NCBI GenBank assembly: GCA_020061145.1
Contig: JAGUYX010000113.1
Coordinates: forward strand, 1-41,308
DNA: 41,308 nt
DNA from: Anaerolineales bacterium
GTDB taxonomy: Bacteria; Chloroflexota; Anaerolineae; Anaerolineales; DRKV01
Direction: 5' to 3'
A program made the position numbers and the translations under genes. The notes beneath the pieces are model-generated. The model did not search any database. It saw nothing but the letters and a program-made list of their open reading frames with translations, and was not told the DNA's origin. Positions 3,396-26,265 of the stretch are shown piece after piece; the stretch's first letter is position 1, and each line of letters opens with the position of its first letter.

Positions 3396-3419
3396 CCGGG
3401 ACTTCCCATAAGATAACGA

Positions 3420-4595
3420 ATGGGAAAAGGTAGCATGCACTTCAAGAAACTCTTTCGTACACTCGCCGTTGCCACGGTCGTAGTTGTGTGGGGAGCCGGG
3501 TTAACCGTTTCCCGCACCGCGCTTGCCCGTGATGCAACCCAGGCAGCCAGCCCAGGGGATGAGTGCGTCACCTGCCACTCCACCCCCGGCCTGGGGATGC
3601 GTTTCACTACGGGTGAGATCGTCTCGGTCTACGTCGATCCGTGGCAGTGGGAGCAGTCCGTTCACGGTTCGACCCTACAATGCACCGCCTGTCACGCTGA
3701 CAGCGCGGTTTATCCTCACCTGGGGCGCGCAATTGCCCATCCGAGTCCCCGGGAGGTGGGGTACCTGACGCGCGGGTATGCTACCTGCGGTGAATGTCAC
3801 CAGCAACAGTATGTGGAATATCTGGGAAGCGTCCATGCGATCGCGCTCCGGGATGGCCAGGCCGAATCCGCGGTGTGCAGCGACTGCCATGGGGATCACG
3901 ACATCGAGCCGGCAGAAGCGAAACGAGATGGTTTGTCCGTCAGGACAGCTGTGATCAACTGTGGAAAATGTCACCAAGAGGAGTTCCAGCAGTATCAGAA
4001 TAGCGTGCATGGTAAAGCACTCTTGAATGGCGGTGATCCGAACGTTCCTGTCTGTGTAGACTGCCACGGTGTGCATGCCATGGGCGATCCAACGATGCCT
4101 GGATTTCGCCGTCAGTCACCCTATCTGTGCGCCTCCTGCCACGCGGATGAGGCGCTGATGAAAGAATATGGATTATCGGCCTCTGTTATGGAAACGTATG
4201 TCGCTGATTTCCATGGGACAACAATGCGGATGATTTCTTCTGATGATGCACCGATATCTGCCGGCGCTGCGCCTGGAGTAGCGATGTGTTACGACTGCCA
4301 CGGGGTCCATGAAATCCGCAGCATGGTCGATGCGCAAAACCCGGCCAGCGGTGATGGTTTGCTGGATATCTGCCAGGAGTGCCACGAGAACGCGCCGCAG
4401 GATTTCCCTGCCGCCTGGTTAGGGCATCGCAAGCCAGATTCCGACCGCTTTCCTCTTGTATTCTGGATCCAGCGCATTTACTCCATTGTAGTTGGTGGGA
4501 TGATTATCGTCTTTGTAGGCCATATCGGCCTCGACTTTGGGAAGATTATCGTTGGCAAGTTACGCGATGAGAGGAAGAGGAGGAGAGCTGAATGA
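3420..4595 (+). CDS. Nonaheme cytochrome c with C-terminal TM (CbcL-like c-type part)
   Basis: Signal peptide, 9 CXXCH, repeated SVH motifs, C-terminal TM with His. ATGA overlap with the cytochrome b gene. Confidence 0.9.
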   Translation: MGKGSMHFKKLFRTLAVATVVVVWGAGLTVSRTALARDATQAASPGDECVTCHSTPGLGMRFTTGEIVSVYVDPWQWEQSVHGSTLQCTACHADSAVYPHLGRAIAHPSPREVGYLTRGYATCGECHQQQYVEYLGSVHAIALRDGQAESAVCSDCHGDHDIEPAEAKRDGLSVRTAVINCGKCHQEEFQQYQNSVHGKALLNGGDPNVPVCVDCHGVHAMGDPTMPGFRRQSPYLCASCHADEALMKEYGLSASVMETYVADFHGTTMRMISSDDAPISAGAAPGVAMCYDCHGVHEIRSMVDAQNPASGDGLLDICQECHENAPQDFPAAWLGHRKPDSDRFPLVFWIQRIYSIVVGGMIIVFVGHIGLDFGKIIVGKLRDERKRRRAE

Positions 4596-5782
4596 GTGAA
4601 ATCAACCTGGAGAGGTTTAGCCGATTCTCTCGAAGTGAGCGCATCCAGCACGCCCTGTTGCTGGTCATGGTAACGTTGCTGGCGCTGACCGGACTGCCAC
4701 AAAAATTCAGTTCAATGGATTGGGCGCCGGTCATGATACGCATGCTCGGTGGTGTGGAGGTTGCCCGCCTTATTCATCGTTTCTGCGCATTCACTCTTAT
4801 CGCCGGGATGACCTATCACGTGTTGTATGGTTTGTATCGGCTGGTCTTAAAGCGCGCCAGGTTTGAAATGCTGCCCAGAATCAGGGATTTTAATGATTTG
4901 AAAGGAAACATCGCCTATTTCGTTGGAATCAAGAAAGAGCGACCGCGTTTCGAGCGCTTCAACTATATTGAAAAGTTTGAATATTGGGCGGTGCTGTGGG
5001 GGATGGTCGTGATGACGCTCACCGGCTTGATCTTATGGTTCCCTGCCAGTGCCGCCAGGATTTTGCCTGGGCTTGCCATTCCCGCTGCCAAAGCTGCTCA
5101 CAGCGGTGAAGCCTTCCTGGCTATAACCGCGGTCGTAATCTGGCACATGTATAACGCTCACATGAGTCCCAGGGTGTTCCCCATCAATAAGTCCATCTTC
5201 AATGGGAAGATCTCAAGGCATGAACTGATGAGCGAGCATGCAAGCGAGTACGAGCGCCTCACCGGCGAGGAAGTGCCGGGAGAAGTTCTTGCGGAACGGC
5301 CGGAGGTTTCTTGGTCCATGCTCCTGACTTCCGGTCTGGTGGGCGTGTTGCTGGTTAGTATGTTCACTATCTTGCTGTACTGGAGCATCACGCCGCCCAA
5401 GCCGGCTCTTCTGCCACCTCTTCACCCTCCTCTGGAGCGGAACTCGATCCTTGTGACGGAAACCCCTTACGGTGCAGACCCAACCGTTTTCTGGGCGGGG
5501 CTTCAGGCACCTCCCGTGGCAGACTTCTCTGTCGCTCAAGAAGAAGTGGGGGAGGGTGGAGCGGCCATCCAGGAACTCCGTTTCCACGACCAATCCACTG
5601 GCCAGGTGACGAGCTGGTTGTGGGATTTTGGCGATGGAGAGACCAGCATGGATCAAAACCCAGTGCACGTTTATAAAGGGACATGCCCGGCAGGCGATCA
5701 CTGTCTTGTTTCCCTGATTGCCTGCGGACCGGGTGGCTGTAACCGTCTTACAAGACCAACCTTGATCCAGCCGCACAGGTAA
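4592..5782 (+). CDS. Di-heme cytochrome b (FdnI/HydC-like) fused to a C-terminal PKD domain
   Basis: RF..ERIQH, LALTGLP, RLIHR, RFNYIEKFEYW, AHSGEA, IWHMY motifs, followed by PKD (SWLWDFGDG). Confidence 0.88.
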   Translation: MSEINLERFSRFSRSERIQHALLLVMVTLLALTGLPQKFSSMDWAPVMIRMLGGVEVARLIHRFCAFTLIAGMTYHVLYGLYRLVLKRARFEMLPRIRDFNDLKGNIAYFVGIKKERPRFERFNYIEKFEYWAVLWGMVVMTLTGLILWFPASAARILPGLAIPAAKAAHSGEAFLAITAVVIWHMYNAHMSPRVFPINKSIFNGKISRHELMSEHASEYERLTGEEVPGEVLAERPEVSWSMLLTSGLVGVLLVSMFTILLYWSITPPKPALLPPLHPPLERNSILVTETPYGADPTVFWAGLQAPPVADFSVAQEEVGEGGAAIQELRFHDQSTGQVTSWLWDFGDGETSMDQNPVHVYKGTCPAGDHCLVSLIACGPGGCNRLTRPTLIQPHR

Positions 5783-5846
5783 TAGCCCCTTGGTTAGTCA
5801 GCTATTCCCGTGAGAAACCGTCCGCCAATATCGTGAGGTAATCGGC

Positions 5847-6404
5847 ATGAGCAAACCTGGTTACACAGAACCGACGATCCTGGAGAGTTCCCTGACCCCT
5901 CTCATCCAACACTTTAATGATCACCTGGGCAAGGTGCGTTTTATCACCCTGCTCTCTCCCACCTGACCGAAGTGAATTGACAAAGGTACCCGTGCGGTAC
6001 GAAATGGTATCCTCGAAGCTTTTCCGGGTGCTGATATTGCGATCATGGTGGTCTGGATCAGTATGATGGAGGGTGATACTTTGGAAGCTGCGCGCAAAGG
6101 TAGCGAGACCTTGCCCGATCCCCGGATCCGATTCTTCTTCGACCCCATCCAGCAATCGGGGCAGGCCATCGCGGCCAGTCTGGGAAACCCCAGGGAAGTC
6201 GCCTGGGACGTTTACCTCTTCTACCCACCAGATTCCGTTTGGGAAGGACGGATCCCCCCCGGACCTGAGATGTACATGCATCAGTTGAGTGATAGCTGGG
6301 CAGACCAGGGACGCTTGTTTCAAGACCTGGAGCTGGGCAAGGAACTCCACCGCGAGATGTCCATACGAATTGACAGATACAAAGTCGGCAAAGTGAAAGA
6401 ATGA
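5847..6404 (+). CDS. Thioredoxin-fold selenoprotein with UxxU motif (TGA 5964, TGA 5973), 185 aa
   Basis: GAGG RBS and ATG 5847, reading ...KVRFITLLSPT-U-PK-U-IDKG... in frame with track ORF 6045..6404. Both TGAs occupy CxxC positions after a beta strand. Confidence 0.85.
5986..6000 (+). promoter_or_regulatory. Candidate SECIS hairpin
   Basis: GTACC-CGTGC-GGTAC starting 10 nt after the second TGA. The stem is short. Confidence 0.5.
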
Positions 6405-6874
6405 AGCGGCAAAGAGAGATTTGTAATACCCTGCTCCTGGCGTTGGCAACAGCCGTGCTTGCCGCTTGTATGTCTGGCACGGAGGCCTCGCCATCTCCCA
6501 TTATCCCCACACGGGCGGGAACACCTGCCCGTGAAACCACCGCTTCGCCTGCCCCCACACCAGTCCCACTCGCGCAGATGGCCGCAGATGAAGACGAACC
6601 CGGGAGTGAAGAGGGGGCGGAGGAGATCGATTGGGGAGAGGAGATCGGTCTCGATACTGTCATCGAGCTGGCGAAACGGGACGATCTGGTCGAAATTCAA
6701 TGGCACGTGATGCCGAACATCATCCGGGTGTTAATTGCAGATGGCAGTATTTATCATTTCAGGAATGAAAATTCAGGGATCGATATCATCAGAACTCTGG
6801 AGAATGCCGGTATCACGGTTGGGAAAGGAGGCGTTACCGTTCGATTCTCCTTTTGCAATTGAGAGGCGCCTTAA
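6401..6874 (+). CDS. Lipoprotein, probably with C-terminal CxU (C-N-U-E-A-P-stop); ends at 6862 if TGA is a stop
   Basis: Lipobox VLAAC and a Pro/Thr linker. TGA 6860 lies two codons after Cys, TAA follows at 6872, and a SECIS-like hairpin is present. Confidence 0.7.
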
Positions 6875-6892
6875 CCCTGGTCAGGGTTAGGG
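6869..6892 (+). promoter_or_regulatory. Candidate SECIS hairpin
   Basis: CCTTAACCCT-GGTC-AGGGTTAGGG: 10-bp stem with one G-U, loop 16 nt after the TGA, no U-tract. Confidence 0.65.
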
Positions 6893-6916
6893 AAGTGTCG
6901 GGTGAGCTTGGGAACG

Positions 6917-7285
6917 ATGCCATACAGCAGCCTCGTACTGCAATATTTTTATGCACGGAAAGGCCTCGGAGATGTGCAGGATCCCGATGGGATCGGTGAA
7001 GCCAGCAGCGAGCGGATCTACATTCGCATCGCAATACGGGTGAGTGAGGACCACATTGTGGAGGTCAAATATCGTTGCCCCACCTGTGTGGTTGCCATCG
7101 CCGCGTGCAGTGCCCTGGCAGATCGGGTTGAGAACCTGACCCTGGAGGAGGCAGCGCATGTTTCTCCGGACGAGCTGAGCGCCATGCTCGGCGGCATCCC
7201 AAAAGAGCGTTACGATCGTTGTATTCTTGCGGTCGATGCCTTGAAGAGAGCAATCAATAACTACAAAGTAAATCGAAAGGATTGA
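6917..7285 (+). CDS. IscU/NifU N-terminal-like scaffold protein (atypical)
   Basis: YSSLVLQYF...GDVQDPDGIGE...KYRCPTCVVAIAACSAL...LGGIP..RC..LAVDALKRAI matches the IscU fold. The first Cys loop is missing. Confidence 0.8.
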   Translation: MPYSSLVLQYFYARKGLGDVQDPDGIGEASSERIYIRIAIRVSEDHIVEVKYRCPTCVVAIAACSALADRVENLTLEEAAHVSPDELSAMLGGIPKERYDRCILAVDALKRAINNYKVNRKD

Positions 7286-7289
7286 GACC

Positions 7290-7622
7290 ATGAAAGTCGC
7301 CTATATCTTTTCTACCACGAATAGCCACAAGATCCTGGACACAATGATTCTGCCGCAATTGGAAGAAAAAAGGCATGGCGTTACCGTCGTTGGGATGTTT
7401 TTCTTTTTCGATAACACCTTCTTTCTCATGAACGGGACGGACATCGGGGCGCGCCTGCAGAAGATCCAGGGAGAAACGGGTATGCTGCTCATGGGCTGCG
7501 ACCAGTGCATTTTCGAGCGCCATCTTGCCGACAAACTCATTCCTGGCGCGCGCATGGGATGTTTCCCCGACCTGTATCAGGCATTGGGCCCTGCTGCACC
7601 TGATCAGGTGATCACGCTTTAG
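7290..7622 (+). CDS. DsrE-family (SaoD-like) sulfur/selenium relay protein
   Basis: MKVAYIF...MILPQLEE..HGV.VVGMFFFFDN...CDQC...GCFPDLY..L..PDQVITL, recognised from memory as the SaoD/DsrE family. Confidence 0.75.
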   Translation: MKVAYIFSTTNSHKILDTMILPQLEEKRHGVTVVGMFFFFDNTFFLMNGTDIGARLQKIQGETGMLLMGCDQCIFERHLADKLIPGARMGCFPDLYQALGPAAPDQVITL

Positions 7623-7709
7623 TTCTTCTTTCCCTTCCCGGCTCGTCCGGGAAAATCCTGATGGCGGAGGGCTGCCCCTCGGGAGACGAACGAGCGTTGA
7701 GGAAAAGCC

Positions 7710-8015
7710 GTGAACAAGATCCTGGTTGAGTTCTTCAGCACCTGCCCGGGTTGAAAAGCTGATGAGCAGTTGGTAACTGCTATCTGCGCCAGCCCTGCTT
7801 GGCGCGACAGGGTCGAGCTCAAGGTATATCGCCTGGACCAGGACCCTTCCGAGGGCAAAAGGTATGGGAATATTCGGGGAGCCACGGTCGTGATTAACCA
7901 GAGGGACATGCTTCGACGGATAAACGCCTATGCCTTGCAGCAAGCCTTAGCACAGGCAGAAACAAACCAGATAAACGAACACCTGGCCGTGAATAATGAG
8001 TGGTTCCATGAATAG
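7710..8015 (+). CDS. Thioredoxin-like selenoprotein, CxxU (SaoT-like); TGA at 7752
   Basis: GAGGA RBS and GTG 7710: MNKILVEFFSTCPG-U-KADEQL...VELKVY...KRYG...TVVIN, in frame with track ORF 7770..8015. Confidence 0.85.
7761..7784 (+). promoter_or_regulatory. Candidate SECIS hairpin
   Basis: GAT-G-AGCAGTT-GGT-AACTGCT-ATC, with the GGT loop 17 nt after the TGA. Confidence 0.75.
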
Positions 8016-8568
8016 CACTATGCTGATCCTCTTGTTCACCCTCCTCTCAACAGTGGCTCTTCTGCTGTTGGCAAACAAGCTCCGCCTTTTCCGCGACCGG
8101 GAAGTGGTTGGATCAATCCTTCATTTGGCGATCACTGACCGGGAAAGCGTGCGGCTTGGCATCGTAGCCGCGGCAATGTATGTGGCGGTTTTTATGATTT
8201 TTGGCGGTCAGGGTGGCCGTATCCATGTTTTTTGGGGACGCTGGATCCTCACCATGACCGCCGGTGATGCCGTTCTTGGCGTGTTCATCGCGTTCCTGAT
8301 CGGACTGGCGGTGGTCCTGATCTCCTACAGTATCAAAGCCATGGGATTGCCCAAGGCTGGAAAGGGCGGAATAGGCGTATTGGGCACGGCGCTTGCCATG
8401 CTTGCTTCTTTCTGTCCCTGATGACTCCCCATGATCACAGCTCTGGTCGGAGCTGCAGGAGCCGTATTCTTAGCCAGCTATTGGAGCCTGCTGGCGCTTT
8501 TGTCGATCGATATGCTCCTGGCCAGCGTTTTGATGTTGGTAGCGAAGTTGAGAGATGAGGCGACTTGA
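7996..8568 (+). CDS. Multi-TM membrane selenoprotein with CPUU motif (tandem TGA 8419, 8422), 190 aa
   Basis: The track ORF ends LASFCP. TGA TGA is followed by 47 further hydrophobic codons (LPMITALVGAAGAVFLASYWSLLALLSIDMLLASVLMLVAKLRDEAT*). Confidence 0.8.
8438..8455 (+). promoter_or_regulatory. Candidate SECIS hairpin
   Basis: CAGCTCT-GGTC-GGAGCTG with the loop 20 nt after the second TGA. CTCC/GGAG can form a lower stem. Confidence 0.72.
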
Positions 8569-8659
8569 ATATGACAGCCAAGCGAGTCCTAGTTAAGGAC
8601 TGGAACAACCAACCCGATAACCCTATGCCGTTGCTGCGTTTGTTCGAGACCGTTTAGAG

Positions 8660-9862
8660 ATGATTTACCTGGATCATGCCGCGACGACCCCCGTCCGTTC
8701 CGAAGTGCTGGATGCCATGATGCCCTTCTTCTCGTTAAATTATGGCAACCCTTCGAGCCTTCATCATAAAGGCCAGGAGGCCTCTCAAGCGCTCGAAGAT
8801 GCCCGCCAGTCAATCGCCAAAGACTTGAATTGTTATCCGGATGAGATCGTTTTTACAAGCGGCGGTACAGAGAGTGATAATCTTGCCATCCGCGGGTATG
8901 CATTTGCCAATCAACGAAACGGCAAGCACATTATCACCTCCTGCGTCGAACACCATGCTGTTCTAAACACCTGCCGCCAGCTTCAACAACACCATGGTTT
9001 TGAAGTCACGTACCTGCCGGTCGATTCGACCGGGATGGTATCCCCAGACGATTTCCAGGGGGCGATCAAACCAGAGACGATCCTGGCGAGCATCATGTAT
9101 GCCAACAACGAGGTGGGCACGATTGAACCCATTCGGGAATTGGCCCGGATTGCGCATGACCACGATGTCGGGTTTCATACGGATGCCGTCCAGGTCTTGG
9201 GACTGATAGATTTGAATTTGAGAGAGCTCGGGGTGGATATGCTCTCGCTCTCAGCCCATAAGTGTTATGGCCCCAAGGGTGTAGGGGTGTTGTTTGTGAA
9301 GCGCGGGGTCCTGCTCATGGAAATCCATGCCGGCGGGGGGCAGGAGAGCACACGCCGCTCTGGGACGGAAAATGTACCGGGGATCGTCGGCATGGCTACG
9401 GCAATCCACCTGGCCTTCTCGGGTTACCGGAAAAACCTGCATCGTTTGGAGAAGTTACGCGACCGCTTGATTGAGTATATCCTGGAGGAAGTACCCGGTG
9501 CCCAGCTCACAGGACATCCTGCTCAGCGCTTACCGAATTCCGCCAGTTTCACCTTCCCGAATATACCTGGCCCGGATGAATTGATTTTATTGCTTGATTT
9601 GAATGGAATTGCGGCCTCCAGCGGGTCAGCCTGCCATGCGAAATCCATCGAACCTTCTCATGTGCTCACCGCAATGGGCGTTTCTCTGGAGCGATCCTCC
9701 GGCAGCCTGAGGCTCAGCCTGGGATATGAGAATACAGAAGAGGAGATCAAACAGGTGCTGCACATCTTGCCAGAGGTGGTGATGGAACTGCAAGGGCTGT
9801 CGGGGGGCTTTCATGCTACGAACAGCAAAGCAAAAAATCCATATCTAGAATCGGGAAAATAG
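8660..9862 (+). CDS. iscS: Group I cysteine desulfurase (IscS/NifS-like)
   Basis: IYLDHAATTP, GNPSS, FTSGGTES, SAHK (PLP Lys), RSGTENV and SSGSACH motifs. Confidence 0.92.
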   Translation: MIYLDHAATTPVRSEVLDAMMPFFSLNYGNPSSLHHKGQEASQALEDARQSIAKDLNCYPDEIVFTSGGTESDNLAIRGYAFANQRNGKHIITSCVEHHAVLNTCRQLQQHHGFEVTYLPVDSTGMVSPDDFQGAIKPETILASIMYANNEVGTIEPIRELARIAHDHDVGFHTDAVQVLGLIDLNLRELGVDMLSLSAHKCYGPKGVGVLFVKRGVLLMEIHAGGGQESTRRSGTENVPGIVGMATAIHLAFSGYRKNLHRLEKLRDRLIEYILEEVPGAQLTGHPAQRLPNSASFTFPNIPGPDELILLLDLNGIAASSGSACHAKSIEPSHVLTAMGVSLERSSGSLRLSLGYENTEEEIKQVLHILPEVVMELQGLSGGFHATNSKAKNPYLESGK

Positions 9863-10029
9863 ATAGTTGTACCTATTACTATCGACCGGACCGTTCCTGT
9901 ATGATGCATCTGAAAACTGTCTTCATCGGATTCGAAGAGAAAGGAGAGGAAAAATACGCCAGATCGCCAAACATTACCGATTTTTCGTAACGTCTATTCC
10001 TATGCAACTCACAGAACATCAAAAGGAGT

Positions 10030-11934
10030 ATGCAACCAATGCGTAAGAAGTTTGCAATAGCTGTCCAATTGATGCTGACGCTGGCAATGATCCTTGCCGC
10101 GTGCGGCGCCCCGGCAGCTCCGCAAGCCACGCCTGAGGTCATCAAAGAGACCGTTGTCGTAACCCAGCAAGTGCCCGTGGAGGTCGTTAAGACCGTCGAG
10201 GTCCCAGTCGCACCCTCCGAGTACTCGATAACGGTGCTGAATCCCCAGGGAGCGATCCCGTTCGCCAGTGATCTGGCGCCGCGCCTCGATACCCTGGAGG
10301 GAAAACGTGTGGCCCTGTGGCTTTCCGCGACGCCTGATCATACGTACGCTGGACAGGGAGCGCCGCTGTATGATGAGTTGGCGAAGATGCTGAAAGAAAA
10401 ATTCGCCACCATCGAGATCATCCCTTACACTGATCTTCCCATGAAGTATTCCCCCGCCGATGAGGTTATCGCGGCAATCACCGCGACGGAACCCGATGCA
10501 GTCGTTGTCGCCTTCGGTGGCTGATGAGGGTGCCTTGGAGCGATGGGTTCCATCGCAGTAGAACTGGAAAAACTGGGTATCCCAACAGTAACTCTTTACA
10601 ACGAACGGCATGAGACACGTTTCATGGGTACCGTGTTGGCAAAAGGTTTTGCCGATTATCCGGCAAAGAATTTCGTTGAAATCGATACGCTGACCGAGGA
10701 GGGCGTTCTCGCCCTGGCTCCCCAGGCGTTCGATTTCCTGGTCGCAGGTCTGACAACCTGGGCTCCTCCGTACCTTGAAAAGCAAGGCGATCTGTGGGTT
10801 CCCACCGAATCGGAATTTATCTTCACGGGAGCAGCCTACGCAGAAGCCCTGGAAAACATGAACGAAGCCTTTCTTGCCGATCTCCGCTGGGGTGATGGAT
10901 TACCTTTGGTGCCAGCGACTCGCGAGCGCGTCGACGCCCTTCTGGCTGGCACGGACCTGGCCCCAGACACAGTTATCGGCACCTGGGGTCCGACAGGCGC
11001 TCAGTTCACGGTTGAAAAGATCGCCATCAATGCCGCCATGGCCGGGGCCCAACCCGAGTATATGCCGGTCATCTTAGCCGCCCTCCAGGCGATTACTTCC
11101 GTCAGATGGGATTCCTATGGACCTGTCATGAAGTCGCCGGTCCCCCTGGTGATCGTGAACGGCCCGGTTGCGAAGCAGATCGGTCTGAACTCCTCTGCGA
11201 ACGCGTTCGGTCCCAACCCGAAATACCCTGCAGGCGCGACAATTGGCCGGGCGATCAGCCTGGCGATGCACAACATTCCAGGTAATGGCCGTGGTTTGCT
11301 GCCCTCCAATCTGGCTGGAAATCCTGCAATGTACGCAGGGATGGTGATTGCGGAAGCTGAGGAAACCGAAGCGCTTGCTGAGGGCTGGGATCCGCTGAAC
11401 GTCCAGTTGGGATATGCCCCCGGCACGAACACTGTGACCGTGTTGGGCGTTGACCAGATGGACATGAGCATCTCGGGCTTTGTCGCTAACGTAGCCGCTT
11501 ACGTTGCCCCCGATAAGAACATCTGGCCAAGCTCGGCCGAAGCCTTCGATCAGCGCGTGGCAGGCGTGGTCGCGGTATCGGAAATGATGTTGATCACCGA
11601 CGGCATGATGAAGGGCATCACCAAAGCCGATATCCAGGAGGAGATGTACGAGAAGGCTCGCATCCCGGTGGATGAGTTCATGACGTTGGTTCTCACCGCG
11701 GAAGACGGTAGCGCTGTGGAACCGAACGCATTTATAAGAGAGCTCATTGGCGGTCTTGCTCCGGGAGAGGGCGTGCCGGTTGCAGCTGCGCCAGACAAGT
11801 TTCTGGTGGTAGCCACCGGCGGCCACTGAACTTGAGCACCGTATTCGTGGCTCGGTTCGAGCCGCTGGATGAGCACCCCTGTAACCGTCGAGATCTCCCT
11901 TCCCGCTAATTGGGAAAGCCTGGTCTCACAGTAG
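10030..11934 (+). CDS. UGSC-family lipoprotein with four selenocysteines (TGA 10522, 10525, 11827, 11833), 634 aa
   Basis: AAGGAG RBS and lipobox LAAC. Track ORFs 10030..10524 and 10543..11829 join in frame via VVVAFGG-U-U-GC-LGAMGSIAVELEKLGIPTV. The core has GDGLPLVPAT and TVEKIAINAAMAG. The end reads VVATGGH-U-T-U-APYSW...VEISLPANWESLVSQ, then TAG TAA. Confidence 0.88.
10540..10556 (+). promoter_or_regulatory. Candidate SECIS hairpin
   Basis: GCGATGG-GTT-CCATCGC starting 12 nt after the second TGA. Confidence 0.78.
11847..11865 (+). promoter_or_regulatory. Candidate SECIS hairpin
   Basis: GTGGCTCG-GTT-CGAGCCGC starting 11 nt after the second TGA. Confidence 0.78.
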
Positions 11935-12016
11935 TAACTTACCAAACGATGATCTTATCACGGTGGGAGCTTCGAAGCTCCCGGGCAGAGAAGCCCCCAT
12001 CGTGATTTCAAAGCCC

Positions 12017-12111
12017 GGGAGTGATTGAGTCCTGGTGGGCTCCTCGGTCTTCAAAACCGCTGTGGGGAGGTGGAAACCTTCCTGGGTGGGTTCGACTCCC
12101 ATTCACTCCCG
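12017..12111 (+). tRNA. selC: tRNA-Sec (anticodon TCA)
   Basis: 8-bp acceptor stem GGGAGTGA/TCACTCCC, anticodon loop CTTCAAA (TCA 12051-12053), long variable arm, 5-bp T stem with TTCGACT loop, G discriminator. CCA is not fully encoded. Confidence 0.96.
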
Positions 12112-12162
12112 CCTTTTACGCAGTATATGACAGGATTGCTTTGATAGAAAGGAGGTATGCCG

Positions 12163-12276
12163 GTGCGAAAATTAATCCTCTGCATATGATTCGATTTCAC
12201 CCAACGCAGTGACTGCGTTATTTCTGTACACAGACCGCGATGCTGCACATCCCCGAACCGGCATCCCTCCACGTAG
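12163..12276 (+). CDS. Putative Sec-containing leader peptide (CxU; TGA 12187), 37 aa
   Basis: Strong SD AAGGAGGT 6 nt before GTG: MRKLILCI-U-FDFTQRSDCVISVHRPRCCTSPNRHPST*. A SECIS-like hairpin AACGCAG-TGA-CTGCGTT lies at 12203-12219. Confidence 0.55.
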
Positions 12277-12300
12277 AGAGCGTGCAACCGAAGCAGTTAC

Positions 12301-12365
12301 ATACTCCCTGGGGGCTGGTTCCGGCGGCTGGCAGCCGGCCCATGTCAACCAAATGGAGGGAGTAT
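12301..12365 (+). promoter_or_regulatory. SD-sequestering structure upstream of yedE
   Basis: ATACTCCCT (12301-12309) is the exact reverse complement of AGGGAGTAT (12357-12365), which covers the yedE SD. Confidence 0.55.
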
Positions 12366-12370
12366 TTTTC

Positions 12371-13516
12371 ATGTCTGCACATAATCGGTTTTTTGCCTCA
12401 CGCTGGGCAATGATATTGACTGGAGGCGCAATCGGTGCCCTTGCGGCGTTGCTGGTCAAATGGGGAAATCCAGGCAATATGGGGCTCTGTATGGCCTGTT
12501 TCATCCGAGATATTTCTGGAGCCTTGGGACTGCACCGCGCTGCAAGCGTACAATATATCCGTCCTGAGGTGATCGGACTTGTTCTGGGGGCGAGTGCTGC
12601 TGCCATAGGCTTTAAAGAATTCAGAGCACGCGGTGGATCCGCCCCCCTCCTCAGGTTTCTATTTGGCAACCTGGCGATCATTGGCGCCCTGGTGTTTCTG
12701 GGTTGCCCCTGGCGGGCGTATCTGCGATTGAGCGGGGGTGATTGGAATGCCATTCCCGGCATTTTGGGATTGGCCGCCGGAGTCTTTTTAGGGGTCCTGC
12801 TCCTGAAGGCAGGTTTTAGTTTGGGGAGGAACCAGCGTGGACCCGCTCCGATTGGATTCGCTTTTCCCGCCCTGGTGATCCTCCTCCTATTCCTATTGGT
12901 CTTCGCGCCCATGTTCGGACGGGATGCCGATGGCAGACTGGTTGGTCCGATCTTCTTCTCCGAGAATGGGCCGGGTGCGCAGCATGCACCGTTGCTAATC
13001 TCACTCTTTATTGGTCTGGTGATCGGCTTCCTGGCGCAACGTAGCCGTTTCTGCACGATTGCCGGGTTGCGCGATCTGATGCTCATGGGGGATACTCACT
13101 TTGCTAGCGGCATTGTAAGCCTTGTGGGGGTCGCGTTTCTCGCCAACCTTGCCCTGGGCCAGTTCAAACCCGGCTTTGCTGATCAGCCCATTGCCCATAC
13201 CGACGCACTTTGGAATTTCGGCGGTATGGTATTGGCAGGGTTGGCATTTACCTTGGCTGGGGGCTGCCCTGGGAGGCAGCTCATTCTGGCTGGCGAAGGC
13301 GATGGAGACGCGGCCATGTTCGTCTTTGGTCTGCTGACCGGAGCAGCCATCTCCCATAACTTTAACCTGGCAAGTACGCCGGCTGGCCCGAGCCCCTACG
13401 GACCTGCGGCAGTTGTGGGCGGTCTGCTGGTTATTTTGGTTGTTGGCCTGGCGATGCGTGAGCGCTTGGTGGTATCGACGGAGAGTATGCAAGTTACGCA
13501 AGAGGTGAAAGCATGA
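12371..13516 (+). CDS. yedE: YedE-family putative selenium transporter
   Basis: GNPGNMGLCMACFIRDISGALGLH, VQYIRPE, FLGCPWR, QRSRFC and GGCPGRQL motifs. ATG 12371 follows GGAGGGAG. Confidence 0.93.
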   Translation: MSAHNRFFASRWAMILTGGAIGALAALLVKWGNPGNMGLCMACFIRDISGALGLHRAASVQYIRPEVIGLVLGASAAAIGFKEFRARGGSAPLLRFLFGNLAIIGALVFLGCPWRAYLRLSGGDWNAIPGILGLAAGVFLGVLLLKAGFSLGRNQRGPAPIGFAFPALVILLLFLLVFAPMFGRDADGRLVGPIFFSENGPGAQHAPLLISLFIGLVIGFLAQRSRFCTIAGLRDLMLMGDTHFASGIVSLVGVAFLANLALGQFKPGFADQPIAHTDALWNFGGMVLAGLAFTLAGGCPGRQLILAGEGDGDAAMFVFGLLTGAAISHNFNLASTPAGPSPYGPAAVVGGLLVILVVGLAMRERLVVSTESMQVTQEVKA

Positions 13517-13743
13517 ACCAGACACCCGAATCACTTCTCGTAGACGCCCGGGGGCTGAGCTGCCCGCAACCGGCAATCCTCACGCGCCAGGCGATCAGCC
13601 AGGCGGCTGGTAGGGTGCTCGAGATTCTCGTGGATGCAATAGCACAGCGCGATAACGTGATCCGCGTGGCGGTGAAAGAAGGCTGGTCGGCAGTCCCAGA
13701 AGAGACAGCCGATGGTCGGATACGCATAAGATTGACGAAGTAG
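13513..13743 (+). CDS. TusA/SirA/YedF-family sulfur/selenium carrier
   Basis: VDARGLSCPQP motif, coupled to yedE. Confidence 0.9.
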   Translation: MNQTPESLLVDARGLSCPQPAILTRQAISQAAGRVLEILVDAIAQRDNVIRVAVKEGWSAVPEETADGRIRIRLTK

Positions 13744-13749
13744 GCAGAT

Positions 13750-14916
13750 TTGGATTCAAGTCTGATTTATCTGGATAACGCCGCCACCTCCTGGCCGAAA
13801 CCGCCGGAGGTTGTTCAGGCAATGGCCAGCTTCATCGCAGAGAGCGGTGGAAATCCGGGGCGTTCTGGTCACCGTCTGTCTCTGGCGGCTGGCAGAGTAG
13901 TGTACCAGGCGAGGGAAGAACTGGCCGACTTCTTCGGGTTAGATGACCCTCTCCGTTTAGTGTTCACCGCCAATGTGACCGAGGCCATCAACCTGGCGCT
14001 CTATGGGCTACTGCGCTCTGGTGATCACGTTATTGCCAGCAGTATGGAACATAACGCCGTCATGCGCCCTCTCAGGCACCTGCAGCGTGAAGGCGTACAT
14101 CTGAGCTTCGCCCCCTGCGGGATGGATGGCCATGTTTCCTTAGCGCATGTTGAAAAACTGCTCAAAACCCAAACCCGCCTGGTTGTGGTCAACCACGCTT
14201 CCAATGTAACCGGAACCATTCAGCCCATTGCAGAAATCGGCGCGCTCTGCCGAGAACACAACACTCTCTTCCTGGTTGACGCGGCTCAGACTGCGGGTGT
14301 ACTGCCGATCAACATCGAAGAGCTTCAAATCGACCTGCTCGCCTTTACCGGTCATAAGGGGTTACTGGGACCAACCGGTACTGGTGGATTGCTCCTGGGT
14401 GAGCGGGTGCCGTTCGAGGAGATGAAGCTGCTGGTGCGGGGTGGAACGGGAAGCCGGTCGGAATACGAGGAGCAGCCTGAGTTCCTGCCTGATCGCTTTG
14501 AAAGTGGCACCCCCAATTCGATCGGACTGGCCGGCCTTTTGGCAGGCCTTCAATTTATCAAGTCACACGCGCTGGATGCCTTACGCGAACAGGAAACTTC
14601 TCAGTTAGCCCGCTTGATCATAGGGCTGAGTAATCTCCCAAACGTCCGGCTGTTTGGCCCGCGCGATCCATCCCGACAGGTACCCGTGGTCTCTTTCACG
14701 CTCGATGGCATGCGGGTATCGGATATCGGTTTTCGACTGGATGAAGAATATGGCATCCTGTGCCGGCCTGGCTTGCAATGTTCCCCTGCTGCTCATCGTA
14801 CCTTAGGGACTTTCCCGCATGGAACGGTCCGGCTCTCTCCAGGTCCATTCACAAAAGATCGTGAAATTGAGAGCGTGCTCGAGGCGGTTGAGAGGTTATC
14901 GGCGGAATTACTATGA
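13750..14916 (+). CDS. Cysteine desulfurase/selenocysteine lyase-like class V aminotransferase
   Basis: IYLDNAATSWPKP, GNPGRSGH, FTGHKGL and RPGLQCSP motifs. Typical of selenium-utilisation operons. Confidence 0.88.
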   Translation: MDSSLIYLDNAATSWPKPPEVVQAMASFIAESGGNPGRSGHRLSLAAGRVVYQAREELADFFGLDDPLRLVFTANVTEAINLALYGLLRSGDHVIASSMEHNAVMRPLRHLQREGVHLSFAPCGMDGHVSLAHVEKLLKTQTRLVVVNHASNVTGTIQPIAEIGALCREHNTLFLVDAAQTAGVLPINIEELQIDLLAFTGHKGLLGPTGTGGLLLGERVPFEEMKLLVRGGTGSRSEYEEQPEFLPDRFESGTPNSIGLAGLLAGLQFIKSHALDALREQETSQLARLIIGLSNLPNVRLFGPRDPSRQVPVVSFTLDGMRVSDIGFRLDEEYGILCRPGLQCSPAAHRTLGTFPHGTVRLSPGPFTKDREIESVLEAVERLSAELL

Positions 14917-15140
14917 GTCAGTACGGAGTTGTATTGTTCTCGGGTACCCAGGCAGCCTTACGAGCTGAAAAACTGCTTGAGAGGGTTGGGCAGGTGGTGA
15001 AGTTGATTCCCACTCCCCGGCACTTGAGCTCCGATTGCGGGGTTGCGCTTCGTTTTTCCTGGGCGGAACAGAACGAAGTGGTCAACACGTTAGATCGGGC
15101 CAGGCTCGCCTATGAGACTATCGCTATTCTTGATGGGTAG
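14913..15140 (+). CDS. DUF3343 putative Se/S carrier-like protein
   Basis: VVLF....ALRAEKLL....KLIPTPRHLSSDCGVALRF. Confidence 0.85.
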   Translation: MSQYGVVLFSGTQAALRAEKLLERVGQVVKLIPTPRHLSSDCGVALRFSWAEQNEVVNTLDRARLAYETIAILDG

Positions 15141-15151
15141 GTGGCATCGAA

Positions 15152-16201
15152 GTGCTAAAAACAACCATTCGTCTCACCGAACTCTCCTCCTGTGCGGGTT
15201 GAGCATCTAAGCTGAGCCCAGAGGCTCTGGCGCAGGTGCTGCGCCCTTTGCGTGCCATGTTCCAGCCCCAGGATTGTCCCGATCTGATGGTCGGCATTGG
15301 TTGTCTGGATGATGCCGCCGTGTATCGCTTGGACAGTGAACGGGCCCTGATCTTCACGACAGATTTTTTCACGCCGGTGGTGGATGATCCGTATGACTAT
15401 GGAGCCATTGCCGCAGCCAATGCCCTTTCTGACGTGTACGCCATGGGCGGAGCGCCGTTGCTGGCGCTAAACCTGGCCGCGTTTCCAGCGCGCCTGCCGG
15501 CTGAGATCCTTGGGCAGGTGTTGATGGGAATGGCGGATATGGTCAAACAGGCTGGGGCTGTGGTGGCTGGAGGCCATACGATCCAGGACGAAGAGCCAAA
15601 AGTCGGCTTGTGCGTGGCTGGGATGGTCCACCCGGACAAGCTGCTCACCAAGGGAGGTGTGCAGCCTGGCGATCAGCTAGTGTTAACCAAGCCTCTTGGG
15701 ACAGGCCTTATTACCACGGCTGCCAAAATGGATCTGGCGGATCGGGAGGATGTCGATGAGGCAATCCAGTGGATGAGACGGCTTAACAGAGCTGCCGGGA
15801 AAACCGCAGCGGACCTGGACTTGCGAGGCGGTACCGATGTCACCGGATTCGGCCTGTTGGGTCATGCCTGGGAAATGGCAGAAGCGTCGCGAGTAACCCT
15901 TAAGGTTTTTTTTGAGGCAGTGCCGTTCATGAACGGTGTTGTCCGTTATGCCGACCAAGGGCTGTTCCCCGGCGGAACGGCATCGAATTATACGGCTTAT
16001 AGCAAACGGATCCATTTTGCAGAATATTTGAATGAGGATCAAAAGATGCTGCTGTTTGATGCGCAAACAAGCGGAGGACTACTCTTGGCCGTGCCACAGG
16101 AGAAGATGGGGGAGTTCTCCAATATGATGGAATTCCATGGCGAAAAGTGTTGGATCATCGGTGAGGCGGTGGGCAGGGAAGCCGGAATTCAGGTCATCTG
16201 A
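15152..16201 (+). CDS. selD: Selenophosphate synthetase, Sec-containing (U17, TGA 15200)
   Basis: GTG 15152: MLKTTIRLTELSSCAG-U-ASKLSP; then DDAAVY, TTDFFTP, ANALSDVYAMGG, GGHT, TDVTGFGLLGH, FDAQTSGGLL. Hairpins at 15214-15227 and 15229-15245. Confidence 0.96.
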
Positions 16202-16227
16202 CCATCAGCCTGGGAAGGAGGGTTGCC

Positions 16228-18141
16228 ATGTATGTAGTCGGTACAGCCGGTCATGTCGATCATGGAAAGTCGACGTTGGTGCGGGCATTGACTGGGATCG
16301 ACCCCGACCGTTTGAAAGAAGAAAAAGAGCGCGAGATGACGATCGATTTGGGGTTTGCCTGGCTGGAACTGCCCAGTGGTCAGGAAGTCTCGATCGTTGA
16401 CGTTCCCGGGCACGAAGACTTCATTAAAAACATGCTGGCCGGGGTAGGGGGGATCGACGCTGTACTGCTGACGGTAGCTGCGGATGAGGCGATCATGCCT
16501 CAGACGCGCGAACATGTGGCGATTCTCGATCTCCTGGAGGTCAAGGCTGGCCTGGTTGTGTTGACAAAAGCCGACATGGTGCCTGACGAGGAATGGTTGG
16601 AGTTGGTCAAAATGGATGTGGCGAGTCTGCTGGAGAAAACCTCACTGGCAGGCGCCCCGATTGTGTTGGTATCCTCCAAGACCGGGAAAGGTCTGATCGA
16701 TCTGGAAGACAACCTCGATGCCCTTCTCAAGAAAACCCCACCACGCCGAGACTTCAACAGGCCGCGCCTATCTATTGATCGAATCTTTACAAAGCCCGGA
16801 TTTGGGACTATCGTCACCGGGACGCTGATTGATGGTCGTTTTTGTGTGGGAGATGAAATCGAGATCCAGCCGAAAGGGTTGAAGGGGCGAATCCGCGGGC
16901 TTCAAACCCACAAAAACAAAGTGGAAGTGGCCACTCCTGGCAGCCGAGTCGCGATCAACCTGACCGGCGTGAATCTGGAAAATCTCAGCCGGGGAGACGT
17001 TGTCACTCATCGCGGTTGGTTGAGCGGTACGGTTTTAGTGGATGCCCGCATCCGGGTTCTGGAGGACTTTGAACTGGCGCTGAGGCATGACATGGAAATC
17101 GAGATCTTCTCCGGGGCCTCACAGGTTTTGGGTCATGCCCGGGTGCTCGGCGCGGATGAAATTCGTCCTGGAGAATTAGGCTGGGTCCAGATCCGCCTGG
17201 TTGATCCAATTGCGTTGGTCAAAGGGGATAGGCTGATCCTTCGCCAGCCCTCTCCAAGCCGGACGATCGGCGGAGGAGTAGTTATCGATCCGCATCCCTA
17301 CCGCAAGCACCGCCGTTACCACGAAGAGGTCATCCGCCATTTAGGGGCAATGGCATCGGATACGCCTGAGGAAATCTTGCTGGCGACGCTGATGAAACAG
17401 GAGCCTATCTCAGCGCGGCTGGCCGTCCAACGCAGCCAGCTTGATTTGGAAGCAGCAGGAAGTGCGTTGTCTAAGCTGCTGGCAGAAGGATTGGTCTATG
17501 TGCTAAATAGCGACACTTCCGATCCTGGCAAGCTTGTTTCTGGCTCTTCCAACCTGATTTCCGCGGAAGGTTTCAATCGATTTGTTGAGCGGATCCGACA
17601 GGTCCTTTCGGAGTATCATACTGCGTTCCCGCTCCGCCTCGGGTTGCCCAGAGAAGAGTTGAACAGCCGCCTGGGTTTGGACCGTCAATTGGTCAATACC
17701 ATCGTAGAGCGTGCCGTGAAGCTGGGCTCGATTAGGGCTGTAGGGGGAAGCCTTTCCTTACCGGGGCACAAAGTGCTATTTTCTCCTGAACAACAGAGGC
17801 AAATTAACCAGGCTTTGGAGGTTTTCCGTCAGGCGCCTTTCACCCCGCCCCCTACAAGAGAGGTAGCATCGCTGATTGGAACAGAGGTCCTCTTTGCGCT
17901 CCTTGAGCAGGGGTGCTTGACCCAGGTGAGTAAGGATGTCGTTTTCATGACTGATACCTACAACCGCATCATCGAACAGGTTGTACAACACCTGAAGGAA
18001 CAAGGTACGATCACGATAGCGGAGGCGCGCGATCTCTTCAATACCAGCCGGAAATATACCCAGGCAATCCTCGAGCACATGGACGAAAAACGGATTACCA
18101 AGCGCCTGGGTGATAACCGGATATTACGACAAATGACTTAG
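16228..18141 (+). CDS. selB: Selenocysteine-specific elongation factor
   Basis: [35 protein letters not shown], and C-terminal winged helices with SRKY. Confidence 0.97.
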
Positions 18142-23599: not shown

Positions 23600-23716
23600 A
23601 AGAACGTCTCGAAATTGTTGTTTAGCCAACAGACAGGGGGAGTAATCTTTGCTATCTTTGATCCTGGAATATTCCCAATACCGATCTGGATTTCATAATG
23701 AGATATCTGTACTTCC

Positions 23717-25537: not shown

Positions 25538-25617
25538 GCATTGGATCACTTGCTAAAAAGATTGATCACACCAGCTACAAGGAATCAGGAAAGCATCTTT
25601 CCAAACGGAGGCAAACG

Positions 25618-26262: not shown

Positions 26263-26265
26263 ACA

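What the first reader, a model, noticed from the sequence alone, without database searches (positions are those of the whole stretch)
5964..11865. One SECIS apparently serves two UGAs (UU, UxU, UxxU), with a recurring GGU-loop hairpin
Seen: after every TGA group there is a single hairpin with its loop 15-20 nt past the last TGA. Loops are GGTC (6879, 8445), GGT (7772), (G)GTT (10546, 11854) and CGTGC (5991). Four sites have paired TGAs but only one evident hairpin. Known: the E. coli model is one SECIS at fixed spacing per UGA. Inference: this SelB/SECIS pair tolerates variable spacing and reloads for consecutive Sec, which is of interest for genetic-code engineering.
Basis: partly seen in the sequence, partly recalled or inferred. 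Interest (0 to 1): 0.85.

Follow-up and report, generated by a model that had tools for sequence, protein, structure and literature searches.

The report
One SECIS hairpin, two selenocysteine codons
A conserved bacterial gene cluster encodes proteins with pairs of neighbouring or adjacent selenocysteine codons, each pair followed by only one recoding hairpin, so one RNA signal most likely directs two insertions of this rare amino acid.

Summary
Such a hairpin follows 8 of 8 TGA groups, against 58 of 1328 control TGAs and 0 of 7 true TGA stops.

By folding energy alone, 2 of 8 hairpins are no better than shuffles. Orthologues settle the matter. Every TGA pair is kept in every orthologous locus seen: 7/7, 9/9, 12/12, 14/14, 19/19 and 16/16. 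Stems covary, and synonymous sites are frozen only inside the hairpins. Cysteine homologues (CxxC in 32 of 39) and uninterrupted homologues show that both codons are translated.

The hairpin is the ordinary bacterial SECIS type. It sits at the usual distance from the 3' TGA (loop G at +20 to +24). The 5' TGA lies 3-9 nt further away.

UxxU selenoproteins are in print. I found UU, UxU and four-Sec bacterial proteins in no paper or model library I could read.

"Reloading" of SelB remains an inference. No tool here can show Sec at both codons.

The parts
5847..6404 (+). Gene A, thioredoxin-like protein with SPT-U-PK-U; its own stop codon is a TGA (6402-6404) with no hairpin
   Evidence: 1225 homologues at E<=1e-3. 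Cys at both positions in 32 of 39 aligned full-length homologues.
5964..5975 (+). TGA pair A (5964-5966 and 5973-5975), UxxU
   Evidence: Both TGAs kept in 7 of 7 loci.
5986..6000 (+). Hairpin A: GTACC-CGTGC-GGTAC; loop G at +20 from the 3' TGA and +29 from the 5' TGA
   Evidence: -4.4 kcal/mol, the weakest. Pairing kept in 7 of 7, with one TA->CG double change. Energy z-score 0.12.
6401..6874 (+). Gene B, lipoprotein ending FCN-U-EAP*
   Evidence: Orthologues end F-U-x-U-(K/E/D)GP..*, so the window's Cys stands opposite their first Sec.
6860..6862 (+). Single TGA of gene B; TGC (Cys) at 6854 is where orthologues have a first TGA
   Evidence: 9 of 9 orthologues have TGA-nnn-TGA.
6869..6892 (+). 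Hairpin B, 10 bp, loop GGTC, loop G at +20; contains the TAA stop (6872-6874)
   Evidence: z -3.02; -13.8 kcal/mol. Orthologues have a different stem sequence with the same shape, AGTCCTG-GTT-CAGGACT.
7710..8015 (+). Gene E, SaoT-like thioredoxin-fold protein, CPG-U, single TGA at 7752-7754
   Evidence: NF040730, 50.9 bits, below the cut-off of 65.
7765..7781 (+). Hairpin E: AGCAGTT-GGT-AACTGCT, loop G at +21
   Evidence: (z -2.17).
7996..8592 (+). Gene F, membrane protein with FCP-UU-LP and a C-terminal U-I-U-QPSES* (four Sec codons)
   Evidence: Weak MerE-like hit below the cut-off.
8419..8424 (+). TGA pair F1, adjacent (UU)
   Evidence: TGATGA in 12 of 12 loci.
8438..8455 (+). Hairpin F1: CAGCTCT-GGTC-GGAGCTG, loop G at +24/+27
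   Evidence: 100% of 84 cells paired. Pair 21-36 is AU in 6, GC in 5 and GU in 1. Energy z-score -0.15.
8566..8574 (+).
   Evidence: TGA-nnn-TGA in 14 of 14 loci.
8585..8601 (+). Hairpin F2: AGTCCT-AGTTA-AGGACT, loop G at +21/+27; the TAG stop (8590-8592) lies inside it
   Evidence: 97% of 66 cells paired, two pairs with changes on both sides, 0 of 500 shuffles reach the covariation score. No T-tail, so not terminator-like.
10030..11934 (+). Gene H, 634-aa lipoprotein: UGSC-family domain plus an uncharacterised domain, with GG-UU-GC and GGH-U-T-U (four Sec codons)
   Evidence: PF24696 spans residues 69-242, across the UU at 165-166. 96 of the 120 homologues listed were called as exactly 428 aa, the stretch between the two TGA sites.
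10522..10527 (+). TGA pair H1, adjacent (UU)
   Evidence: 19 of 19 loci.
10540..10556 (+). Hairpin H1: GCGATGG-GTT-CCATCGC, loop G at +23/+26
   Evidence: Nearly invariant, with frozen synonymous sites.
11827..11835 (+). TGA pair H2 (11827-11829, 11833-11835), UxU
   Evidence: 16 of 16 loci. Homologues L116 and L118 read straight through here with sense codons and share the tail.
11847..11865 (+). Hairpin H2: GTGGCTCG-GTT-CGAGCCGC, loop G at +23/+29
   Evidence: All 8 pairs invariant in 15 loci, with frozen synonymous sites. Energy z-score -2.00.
12017..12113 (+). tRNA-Sec (selC), anticodon TCA
   Evidence: ARAGORN; Rfam RF01852, 73.5 bits.
15152..16201 (+). SelD with Sec codon at 15200-15202; the downstream structure is ambiguous
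16228..18141 (+). SelB, selenocysteine-specific elongation factor
   Evidence: TIGR00475, 354.7 bits, and SelB winged-helix Pfam domains.

Best explanation
The window carries a selenium island. It holds selC, a yedE-type transporter, sclA-like, selD and selB, NifS, a NifU-like protein and SaoD/SaoT-like genes. Embedded in it is a conserved four-gene cluster, A-B-F-H, whose proteins carry Sec in pairs: UxxU, UxU and UU.

Each pair is followed by one ordinary bacterial SECIS hairpin: a 5-10 bp stem and a 3-5 nt loop that begins (N)G[G/U]. The hairpin sits at the canonical distance from the 3'-most UGA (10-13 nt spacer, loop G at +20 to +24).

Inferred mechanism. SelB-GTP-Sec-tRNASec bound to that hairpin decodes the 5' UGA while the hairpin is still 3-9 nt further from the ribosome than usual; the extra single-stranded spacer gives slack. 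The ribosome then moves one to three codons, which brings the intact hairpin into canonical register. A second SelB ternary complex, or the same SelB recharged, decodes the 3' UGA.

Shown here: the anatomy, its conservation, translation through both codons, and Cys/Sec equivalence at several positions. Inferred: that both residues are Sec, and the order and manner of SelB use.
For: 1. Position- and loop-specific hairpin after 8 of 8 TGA groups, against 4.4% of 1328 control TGAs and 0 of 7 real TGA stops.

2. Both TGAs of every pair are kept in all orthologous loci found, from MAGs labelled Desulfobacterota/Thermodesulfobacteriota and Acidobacteriota and from metagenome contigs at 47-70% protein identity. 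Counts are A 7/7, B 9/9 (window Cys-x-Sec), F1 12/12, F2 14/14, H1 19/19 and H2 16/16.

3. Translation passes through both codons. Pfam UGSC spans the UU. The tail after H2, APFSWLG.SRW..PV..I.LP, is conserved with synonymous changes. Homologues L116 and L118 have an uninterrupted frame with sense codons at the two positions and the same EI.LPANW tail. A transmembrane segment follows F1.

4. Cys/Sec equivalence. Both positions of A align with Cys in 32 of 39 full-length homologues. The window's B has Cys where 9 orthologues have the 5' TGA.

5. RNA-level selection. There are compensatory pairs in A, B, F1 and F2. Of 189 invariant degenerate codon columns in 12 H orthologues, only 9 use one codon throughout. 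Eight of those 9 lie in the ten hairpin columns (Fisher p = 1e-11).

6. Single-UGA genes show the same element at the same distance: FdhA on another contig, GTCGCC-GGTCT-GGCGAC with loop G at +22; B at +20; E at +21; and classical UGSC homologues at +23 in 42 of the 48 sites printed.

7. Relative to the protein alignment, the hairpin lies one codon further 3' in the UU subfamily than in the single-U family, so it keeps +23 to the last UGA.

8. TGA is still a stop in this genome (7 of 14 stop codons checked). The Sec machinery is present.

9. 5 of 5 other genomes with the cluster have a single SelB, so no special factor is needed.
Against: Nothing here shows selenium in the proteins. The identity of the residue at the 5' UGA is inferred.

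By folding energy alone, hairpins A (z 0.12) and F1 (z -0.15) are no better than shuffles. Minimal hairpins A, E and F2 (-4.4, -6.4, -6.4 kcal/mol) are weaker than the -7.5 of the published model.

Covariation rests on few events. In F1 only one pair varies, and 'pairs with a change on both sides' is reached by 250 of 500 shuffles.

H1 and H2 stems hardly vary, so their support is conservation, and part of that is protein-coding constraint.

The tails after B and F2 are only 3-5 residues long and poorly conserved, so read-through there is less certain.

No Rfam SECIS family matched, even at E<=10.

Some of my site counts came from patterns that allowed only TGA or TGY at the sites. I offset this by translating the H loci and by a pattern-free scan.

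From recall, not from a call: E. coli work reports that moving the UGA relative to the hairpin lowers insertion sharply.
Confidence: 0.75

Rival explanations
1. Only the 3' UGA of each pair is decoded by SelB and the SECIS. The 5' UGA, out of register, is read some other way, for example by a near-cognate Trp or Cys tRNA, so the proteins carry one Sec per pair.
For: The hairpin is in canonical register only for the 3' UGA. The E. coli model has the upper stem-loop 11 nt from the UGA (review PMC8659212, passage read).
Against: The 5' codon is TGA in every orthologue of all six pairs and is never TGG; its only replacement is Cys, in the window's B. In A it aligns with a conserved Cys (33 of 39). 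In H1 the protein alignment puts the 5' U opposite the established Sec of the UGSC family. The published bSECIS range of 16-37 nt covers +26 to +33. In B orthologues even the 3' UGA sits at +24 to +27.
Confidence: 0.12
2. At the C-terminal UxU sites with very short tails (B, F2) the first or second TGA is, wholly or partly, the real stop codon. The hairpin then tunes termination or mRNA stability rather than Sec insertion.
For: The tails are 3-5 residues long and poorly conserved. The stop codons lie inside the hairpins.
Against: The TGA-nnn-TGA arrangement and a hairpin with a G[G/U] loop at +21 to +27 are kept in 14 of 14 (F2) and 9 of 9 (B) loci, with compensatory changes. The hairpins have no T-tail. 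The window's B has Cys at the first position. Families with Sec a few residues from the C-terminus ('UXX-star', 'KCU-star') are listed in the 2026 review.
Confidence: 0.08
3. The TGAs are ordinary stops between separate short genes (TGATGA being a tandem stop), or assembly errors, and the hairpins are chance.
For: Gene callers split H into 164-aa and 428-aa pieces. GC-rich DNA folds readily.
Against: One Pfam domain spans the UU. Frame and peptide are conserved across the sites in 16-19 independent assemblies. Homologues have uninterrupted frames. Hairpin statistics and frozen synonymous sites also argue against chance.
Confidence: 0.02

Closest known systems
Bacterial SECIS element (bSECIS consensus of bSECISearch; E. 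coli fdhF type)
   Same: A hairpin directly 3' of the UGA, with a small apical loop beginning (N)G[G/U] and 16-37 nt from UGA to loop (model as described in PMC13188914). The fdhA in this genome has a GGUCU loop with G at +22. The spacer from the last UGA to the stem is 10-13 nt, against 11 nt in E. coli (PMC8659212).
   Different: One hairpin follows two UGAs that are 0, 1 or 2 codons apart, so the 5' UGA is decoded 3-9 nt out of the usual register. Two hairpins (B, F2) enclose the gene's stop codon and run into the 3' UTR.
Bacterial UxxU selenoproteins (Prx-like thiol:disulfide oxidoreductase, metal-binding protein NF041115, FmdB family) and UxxxxU TsoB
   Same: Two Sec codons a few codons apart in one bacterial gene, listed in Table 1 of PMC13188914. 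UxxU forms of Prx-like 2 are noted in PMC2398784. Gene A is the same kind of case, a CxxC fold with UxxU.
   Different: None of A, B, F or H reached the curated cut-off of any NCBIfam release 20 model. A and B matched nothing; F (MerE) and H (UGSC) matched only below cut-off. Adjacent UU and UxU motifs, and four Sec in one protein, are not in that table, whose maximum is 3.
UGSC-containing selenoprotein family (PF24696 / NF041046), including its fusion to an 'Unknown_1' domain
   Same: The N-terminal domain of H matches PF24696 (60.5 bits, cut-off 25). Distant homologues at about 30% identity are the classical fusion with GD-U-GSC and a hairpin at +23. The fusion is mentioned in PMC2398784.
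   Different: H has GG-UU-GC instead of D-U-GSC, and an added C-terminal H-U-x-U site. It scores 35.8 bits against the NF041046 cut-off of 125.
Eukaryotic selenoprotein L (UxxU) and selenoprotein P (many UGAs, two 3'-UTR SECIS)
   Same: One SECIS serves more than one UGA.
   Different: Those SECIS elements act from the 3' UTR at long range through SBP2 and eEFSec. Here the element is local and is unwound by the same ribosome a few codons later.

Membership tests
Bacterial SECIS (bSECIS model) | [quoted passage not shown] | tested here: met
   Loops are CGTGC, GGTC, GGT, GGTC, AGTTA, GTT and GTT at the seven sites of genes A, B, E, F and H. The SelD site is ambiguous.
Bacterial SECIS (bSECIS model) | Upper stem of 4-16 bp | tested here: met
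   5, 10, 7, 7, 6, 7 and 8 bp.
Bacterial SECIS (bSECIS model) | [quoted passage not shown] | tested here: met
   Loop G at +20 to +24 from the 3' TGA and +26 to +29 from the 5' TGA in the window; up to +33 in B orthologues.
Bacterial SECIS (bSECIS model) | Minimum free energy <= -7.5 kcal/mol | tested here: inconclusive
   Minimal hairpins: 4 of 7 pass (-13.8, -8.9, -9.3, -12.1) and A, E and F2 fail (-4.4, -6.4, -6.4). For the 40-nt segments, 6 of 7 pass and A gives -6.9.
Bacterial SECIS (bSECIS model) | Binds SelB and is required for UGA read-through | not testable with these tools
   Needs binding or reporter assays.
Rfam curated SECIS families | Match to a covariance model | tested here: not met
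   No SECIS family matched at gathering score or at E<=10 on 5800-15400.
Selenoprotein gene (Sec/Cys criterion) | The in-frame TGA aligns with Cys, or with an established Sec, in homologues, and homology continues past it | tested here: met
   A: both positions are Cys in 32 of 39 homologues. B: Cys in the window against TGA in 9 orthologues. H1: aligns with the U of UGSC and the Pfam domain spans it. H2: uninterrupted homologues have His/Thr there, not Cys, so that pair rests on read-through homology, not on a Cys pair. No Cys form of F was found (one search returned only the window's own fragment).
Selenoprotein gene (Sec/Cys criterion) | Sec machinery in the genome | tested here: met
   selC x2, selB x2, selD x2 and selA x1.
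UGSC family (seleno)protein | Score over the curated cut-off | tested here: inconclusive
   Pfam PF24696: 60.5 bits against 25, met. NCBIfam NF041046 equivalog: 35.8 bits against 125, not met. H is a divergent subfamily, not an equivalog.
SaoT / SaoD (NCBIfam) | Score over the curated cut-off | tested here: inconclusive
   SaoD NF040732: 171.5 bits against 169, met. SaoT NF040730: 50.9 bits against 65, not met.

The most novel reading that the evidence does not exclude
Natural bacterial SelB/SECIS systems routinely insert two selenocysteines in a row, even at adjacent UGA-UGA, from one hairpin that tracks the 3' codon. A widespread four-gene cluster exploits this to build proteins with four Sec each, 12 Sec codons per cluster. 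These are probably membrane and lipoprotein components that bind or relay selenium or a soft metal(loid) through diselenol sites (H-U-x-U, CP-UU). They would be the most Sec-dense bacterial proteins described, and a ready-made template for inserting multiple Sec residues.
Probability: 0.6. Interest if true: 0.78.

Novelty: new variant of a known kind. Interest (0 to 1): 0.68.

Why it matters
Bacterial Sec insertion is taught as one UGA with one hairpin at fixed spacing. That rule is the main obstacle to making proteins with several Sec residues.

Here evolution has kept adjacent and near-adjacent UGA pairs behind a single hairpin, across at least two phyla and in hundreds of metagenomic homologues. 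This gives concrete natural sequences, and a cognate selB/selC, with which three questions can be tested directly:

- How far the spacing can stretch.
- Whether SelB recharges on the mRNA.
- How termination by RF2 is avoided twice in a row.

The finding also flags four selenoprotein families that gene callers split or truncate. 96 of the 120 homologues of H listed were called as 428-aa fragments.

Tried and rejected
Genome-wide hunt for further selenoprotein genes, using hairpin plus open frame plus a nearby Cys/Sec. It gave 696 candidates, mostly noise, so I dropped it. Instead I searched the genome with known families. FdhA gave one clean extra single-UGA site. UGSC returned only gene H itself.

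The elements are 15-24 nt long with variable stems, so a model would carry too little information for a 3-Mb genome. The position-specific motif test and the per-site pair counts took its place.

Relatives of the window's genome (41 genomes): no orthologue of H. There were only weak or C-terminal-domain matches, so the cluster is not a lineage trait. Orthologues came from the genome contigs and metagenome-contig scans.

A special SelB for pairs. The assembly has two SelB, two tRNA-Sec and two SelD. However, 5 of 5 other genomes with the cluster have one SelB, and no tRNA-Sec lies within 3 kb of their clusters. I rejected this as a requirement. I did not resolve whether the duplication is an acquired island or a binning chimera.

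Fold of H. The AlphaFold2 model has pLDDT 82.3 and pTM 0.78. The Foldseek search of PDB gave no match at E<=0.001, only generic flavodoxin-like hits to the N-domain. A sequence search of PDB gave nothing. I could not measure distances between the Sec sites because model coordinates are not exposed.

Homologues of F: the word-based search found only the window's own fragment.

Terminator reading of the 3'-UTR hairpins: none was called terminator-like.

Literature. Searches found no paper on adjacent or four-fold Sec in bacteria. Haft & Gwadz 2023, Haft & Tolstoy 2025 and Heider et al. 1992 are not held. Supplements were closed, so Figure S1A of PMC2398784 (the UGSC fusion) was not seen. These unseen sources could describe the families and bear on the novelty claim.

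What I read:
- PMC13188914: passages, and parts 1-2 of section 7.
- PMC1976440, PMC2398784, PMC8659212, PMC3834832: passages only. PMC10945757: term search only, no matching passage.
- All other papers: search listings only.

Full report
WHAT IS THERE

The window is a selenium island. On the + strand it holds:
- multihaem cytochromes and a cytochrome b/PKD protein (1018-5782);
- gene A (5847-6404) and gene B (6401-6874);
- a NifU-like protein, SaoD, and a SaoT-like protein E (7710-8015);
- membrane protein F (7996-8592);
- NifS;
- the 634-aa lipoprotein H (10030-11934);
- tRNA-Sec (12017-12113);
- a YedE-type selenium transporter, an SclA-like lyase, SelD (with its own TGA at 15200) and SelB.

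In-frame TGAs give these motifs:
- A: SPT-U-PK-U
- B: FCN-U-EAP*
- E: CPG-U
- F: FCP-UU-LP
- H: GG-UU-GC and GGH-U-T-U

I found one more pair, U-I-U at the C-terminus of F (8566/8572), with its own hairpin at 8585-8601.

IS IT MORE THAN CHANCE?

I tested for a hairpin that fits the published bacterial SECIS model: a perfect stem of at least 5 bp, a loop of 3-6 nt starting (N)G[G/T], and that G at +18 to +30.
- It follows 8 of 8 TGA groups.
- It follows 58 of 1328 other TGA trinucleotides in the window (4.4%).
- It follows 0 of 7 genuine TGA stop codons.
- 0.044^8 is 1.4e-11.

I set these criteria after seeing the sites, but they follow the model described in PMC13188914. With that paper's full range (+16 to +37) the background is 7.0%.

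Folding energy alone is a poor test in this 55% G+C DNA. The z-scores are 0.12, -3.02, -2.17, -0.15, -1.96, -1.29, -2.00 and -2.08, so sites A and F1 are no better than shuffles. It is not met by position and loop, nor by evolution.

ORTHOLOGUES

Homologues of H are abundant. 353 scored E<=1e-3, and 96 of the 120 listed were called as exactly 428 aa, which is the piece between the two TGA sites.

The scans of genome and metagenome contigs gave 20 orthologous loci at 47-70% identity. They come from MAGs labelled Desulfobacterota/Thermodesulfobacteriota and Acidobacteriota, and from unnamed contigs. In them A, B, F and H form a conserved cluster.

Every pair is kept wherever the region is present:
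- A: 7/7
- B: 9/9 as U-x-U (the window has Cys-x-U)
- F1: 12/12
- F2: 14/14
- H1: 19/19
- H2: 16/16

Before counting I dropped seven false pattern hits: L116:3175, L014:1419, L013:4610, L015:3240, L020:4206, L110:2457 and L111:778. I also dropped L023's frame-broken B gene.

L013 carries all six pairs, which is 12 Sec codons in four genes.

BOTH CODONS ARE TRANSLATED
- The Pfam UGSC domain spans the UU of H.
- The peptide after H2 is conserved with synonymous variation.
- More distant homologues (L116, L118; 34-36% identity) have an uninterrupted frame reading GGRHPTHAY or GGEQSGHAY where the window has GGH-U-T-U-APY. They share the tail EI.LPANW.
- For A, 1225 homologues exist. In 39 aligned full-length ones, both positions are Cys in 32.
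- For B, the window's Cys replaces the orthologues' 5' Sec codon.

THE HAIRPINS ARE SELECTED AS RNA
- Compensatory changes occur in A (TA->CG), B (GC->AT, TA->CG), F1 (AU 6, GC 5, GU 1) and F2 (two pairs).
- Only 3 of the 459 stem cells counted are unpaired.
- The window's B hairpin has a wholly different stem sequence from its orthologues but the same shape.
- In H the stems barely vary, but the reason is visible. Among 189 codon columns with an invariant degenerate residue in 12 orthologues, only 9 use a single codon. Eight of those 9 are in the ten hairpin columns (Fisher p = 1e-11).

GEOMETRY

Counting the T of each TGA as +1, the first G of the loop motif lies at:
- single sites: +20 (B), +21 (E), +22 (FdhA on contig C316, loop GGUCU);
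- classical single-Sec UGSC homologues: +23 in 42 of the 48 sites printed;
- the 3' TGA of pairs: +20 (A), +24 (F1), +21 (F2), +23 (H1), +23 (H2);
- the 5' TGA of pairs: +29, +27, +27, +26, +29.

In B orthologues the values are +24 to +27 for the 3' TGA and +30 to +33 for the 5' TGA.

The spacer from the 3' TGA to the stem is 10-13 nt, against 11 nt in the E. coli model (PMC8659212).

So the hairpin is set for the last UGA, and the first UGA is decoded from 3-9 nt further away. The protein alignment places the Sec of the classical UGSC motif opposite the first U of UU. Yet the hairpin keeps +23 to the second U. The element therefore lies one codon further 3' than in the single-Sec family. This reading rests on one ungapped alignment. 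Anchoring on the Gly-Ser codons of the loop would instead equate the second U with the ancestral Sec.

MECHANISM (INFERRED)

While the 5' UGA is in the A site the hairpin is intact and a little further from the mRNA entrance than usual. Extra single-stranded spacer can be taken up as slack, whereas too short a spacer could not be. After one to three translocations the same intact hairpin is in canonical register for the 3' UGA. A second SelB-GTP-Sec-tRNASec is then needed. Whether the first SelB stays on the RNA and recharges, or a new complex binds, cannot be told from sequence.

TGA codons without a nearby hairpin remain stops, even in the same operon and mRNA: A's own stop at 6402, the NifU-like stop at 7283, and the stop of H in L020.

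The genome also has a second selB (49% identical), a second selC and a second selD on other contigs. Five of five other genomes with the cluster have one SelB, so no dedicated factor is required.

COMPARISON WITH WHAT IS KNOWN

The hairpin type and its range of spacing are the published bSECIS consensus. Bacterial UxxU proteins and one UxxxxU protein are listed in the May 2026 inventory of 119 families, which states that a small subset has 2-3 Sec. Serving two nearby UGAs from one element is therefore implicit in known families.

I could not find in print, or in Pfam or NCBIfam release 20, any of the following:
- adjacent UU;
- UxU;
- bacterial proteins with four Sec;
- these four families.

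Function is open. The proteins are lipoproteins and a membrane protein with diselenol-type sites. A His-containing equivalent occurs in Sec-free homologues. They sit next to selenium-trafficking genes, cytochromes with a weak ExtM hit, and corrinoid methyltransferases. This points to handling of selenium or a soft metal(loid).

VERDICT

This is a new variant of a known mechanism, carried by apparently undescribed multi-Sec families.

Noticed in passing
window 8566-8601: A fifth TGA pair (U-I-U, then QPSES and a TAG stop) at the C-terminus of gene F, with its own hairpin enclosing the stop codon. It is conserved in 14 of 14 loci.
   Followed up: yes
window 5847-11934; L013:800-4362: A, B, F and H form a conserved four-gene cluster in Desulfobacterota and Acidobacteriota MAGs, with 12 Sec codons in L013. 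In the window, NifU-like, SaoD and SaoT-like genes are inserted between B and F, and NifS between F and H. No curated family model covers A, B, F or the C-terminal domain of H.
   Followed up: partly
genome contigs C295:2172-2267, C41:8559-10448, C233:8796-9728, versus window 12017-18141: The assembly holds two tRNA-Sec genes, two SelB (49% identical, both 637 aa) and two Sec-containing SelD, but one SelA. I did not resolve whether this is an acquired island with its own decoding genes or a binning chimera (contamination 3.5%).
   Followed up: partly
window 15200-15250; C233:8826-8880: The SelD Sec codon is followed by two hairpins in both gene copies. The first has a CAGA or UGAA loop (no G[G/U] start) at about +21, with different stem sequences. 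The second is GGCGCAG-GTG-CTGCGCC at +37. Which one is the SECIS is unclear.
   Followed up: partly
L116:2532-4304, L118:1587-3407: Homologues of H at 34-36% identity have a single Sec (AA-U-GAC). At the place of H-U-x-U they have His-containing sense codons (RHPTHAY, EQSGHAY). This suggests the C-terminal site is a metal(loid)-binding site.
   Followed up: no
L020:2187-2189: In this orthologue the real stop of H is a TGA directly after ..ELP, 24 codons past the UxU and without a hairpin. One mRNA thus uses TGA both as Sec and as stop.
   Followed up: partly
L023:2974-3015: This orthologue has a 6-nt insertion between UU and the hairpin, putting the loop at +29/+32. The record has several frame breaks, so it may be an assembly error.
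   Followed up: no
window 22298-28433 and 29629-30531: A corrinoid methyl-transfer set lies beside a glycosyltransferase of the arsenosugar-biosynthesis type. The set has two MtgC/MtbC-like corrinoid proteins (one fused to a Crp/Fnr-type domain), an AcsV/RamA-type reductive activase, an MtaA/CmuA-type methyltransferase and a methyl-THF methyltransferase. There may be a link to metalloid methylation.
   Followed up: no
window 1018-5782: Two multihaem c-type cytochromes (a weak match to the selenite/tellurite-reduction cytochrome ExtM, far below cut-off), a PKD-domain protein and a cytochrome b/PKD fusion lie directly upstream of the selenoprotein cluster.
   Followed up: no
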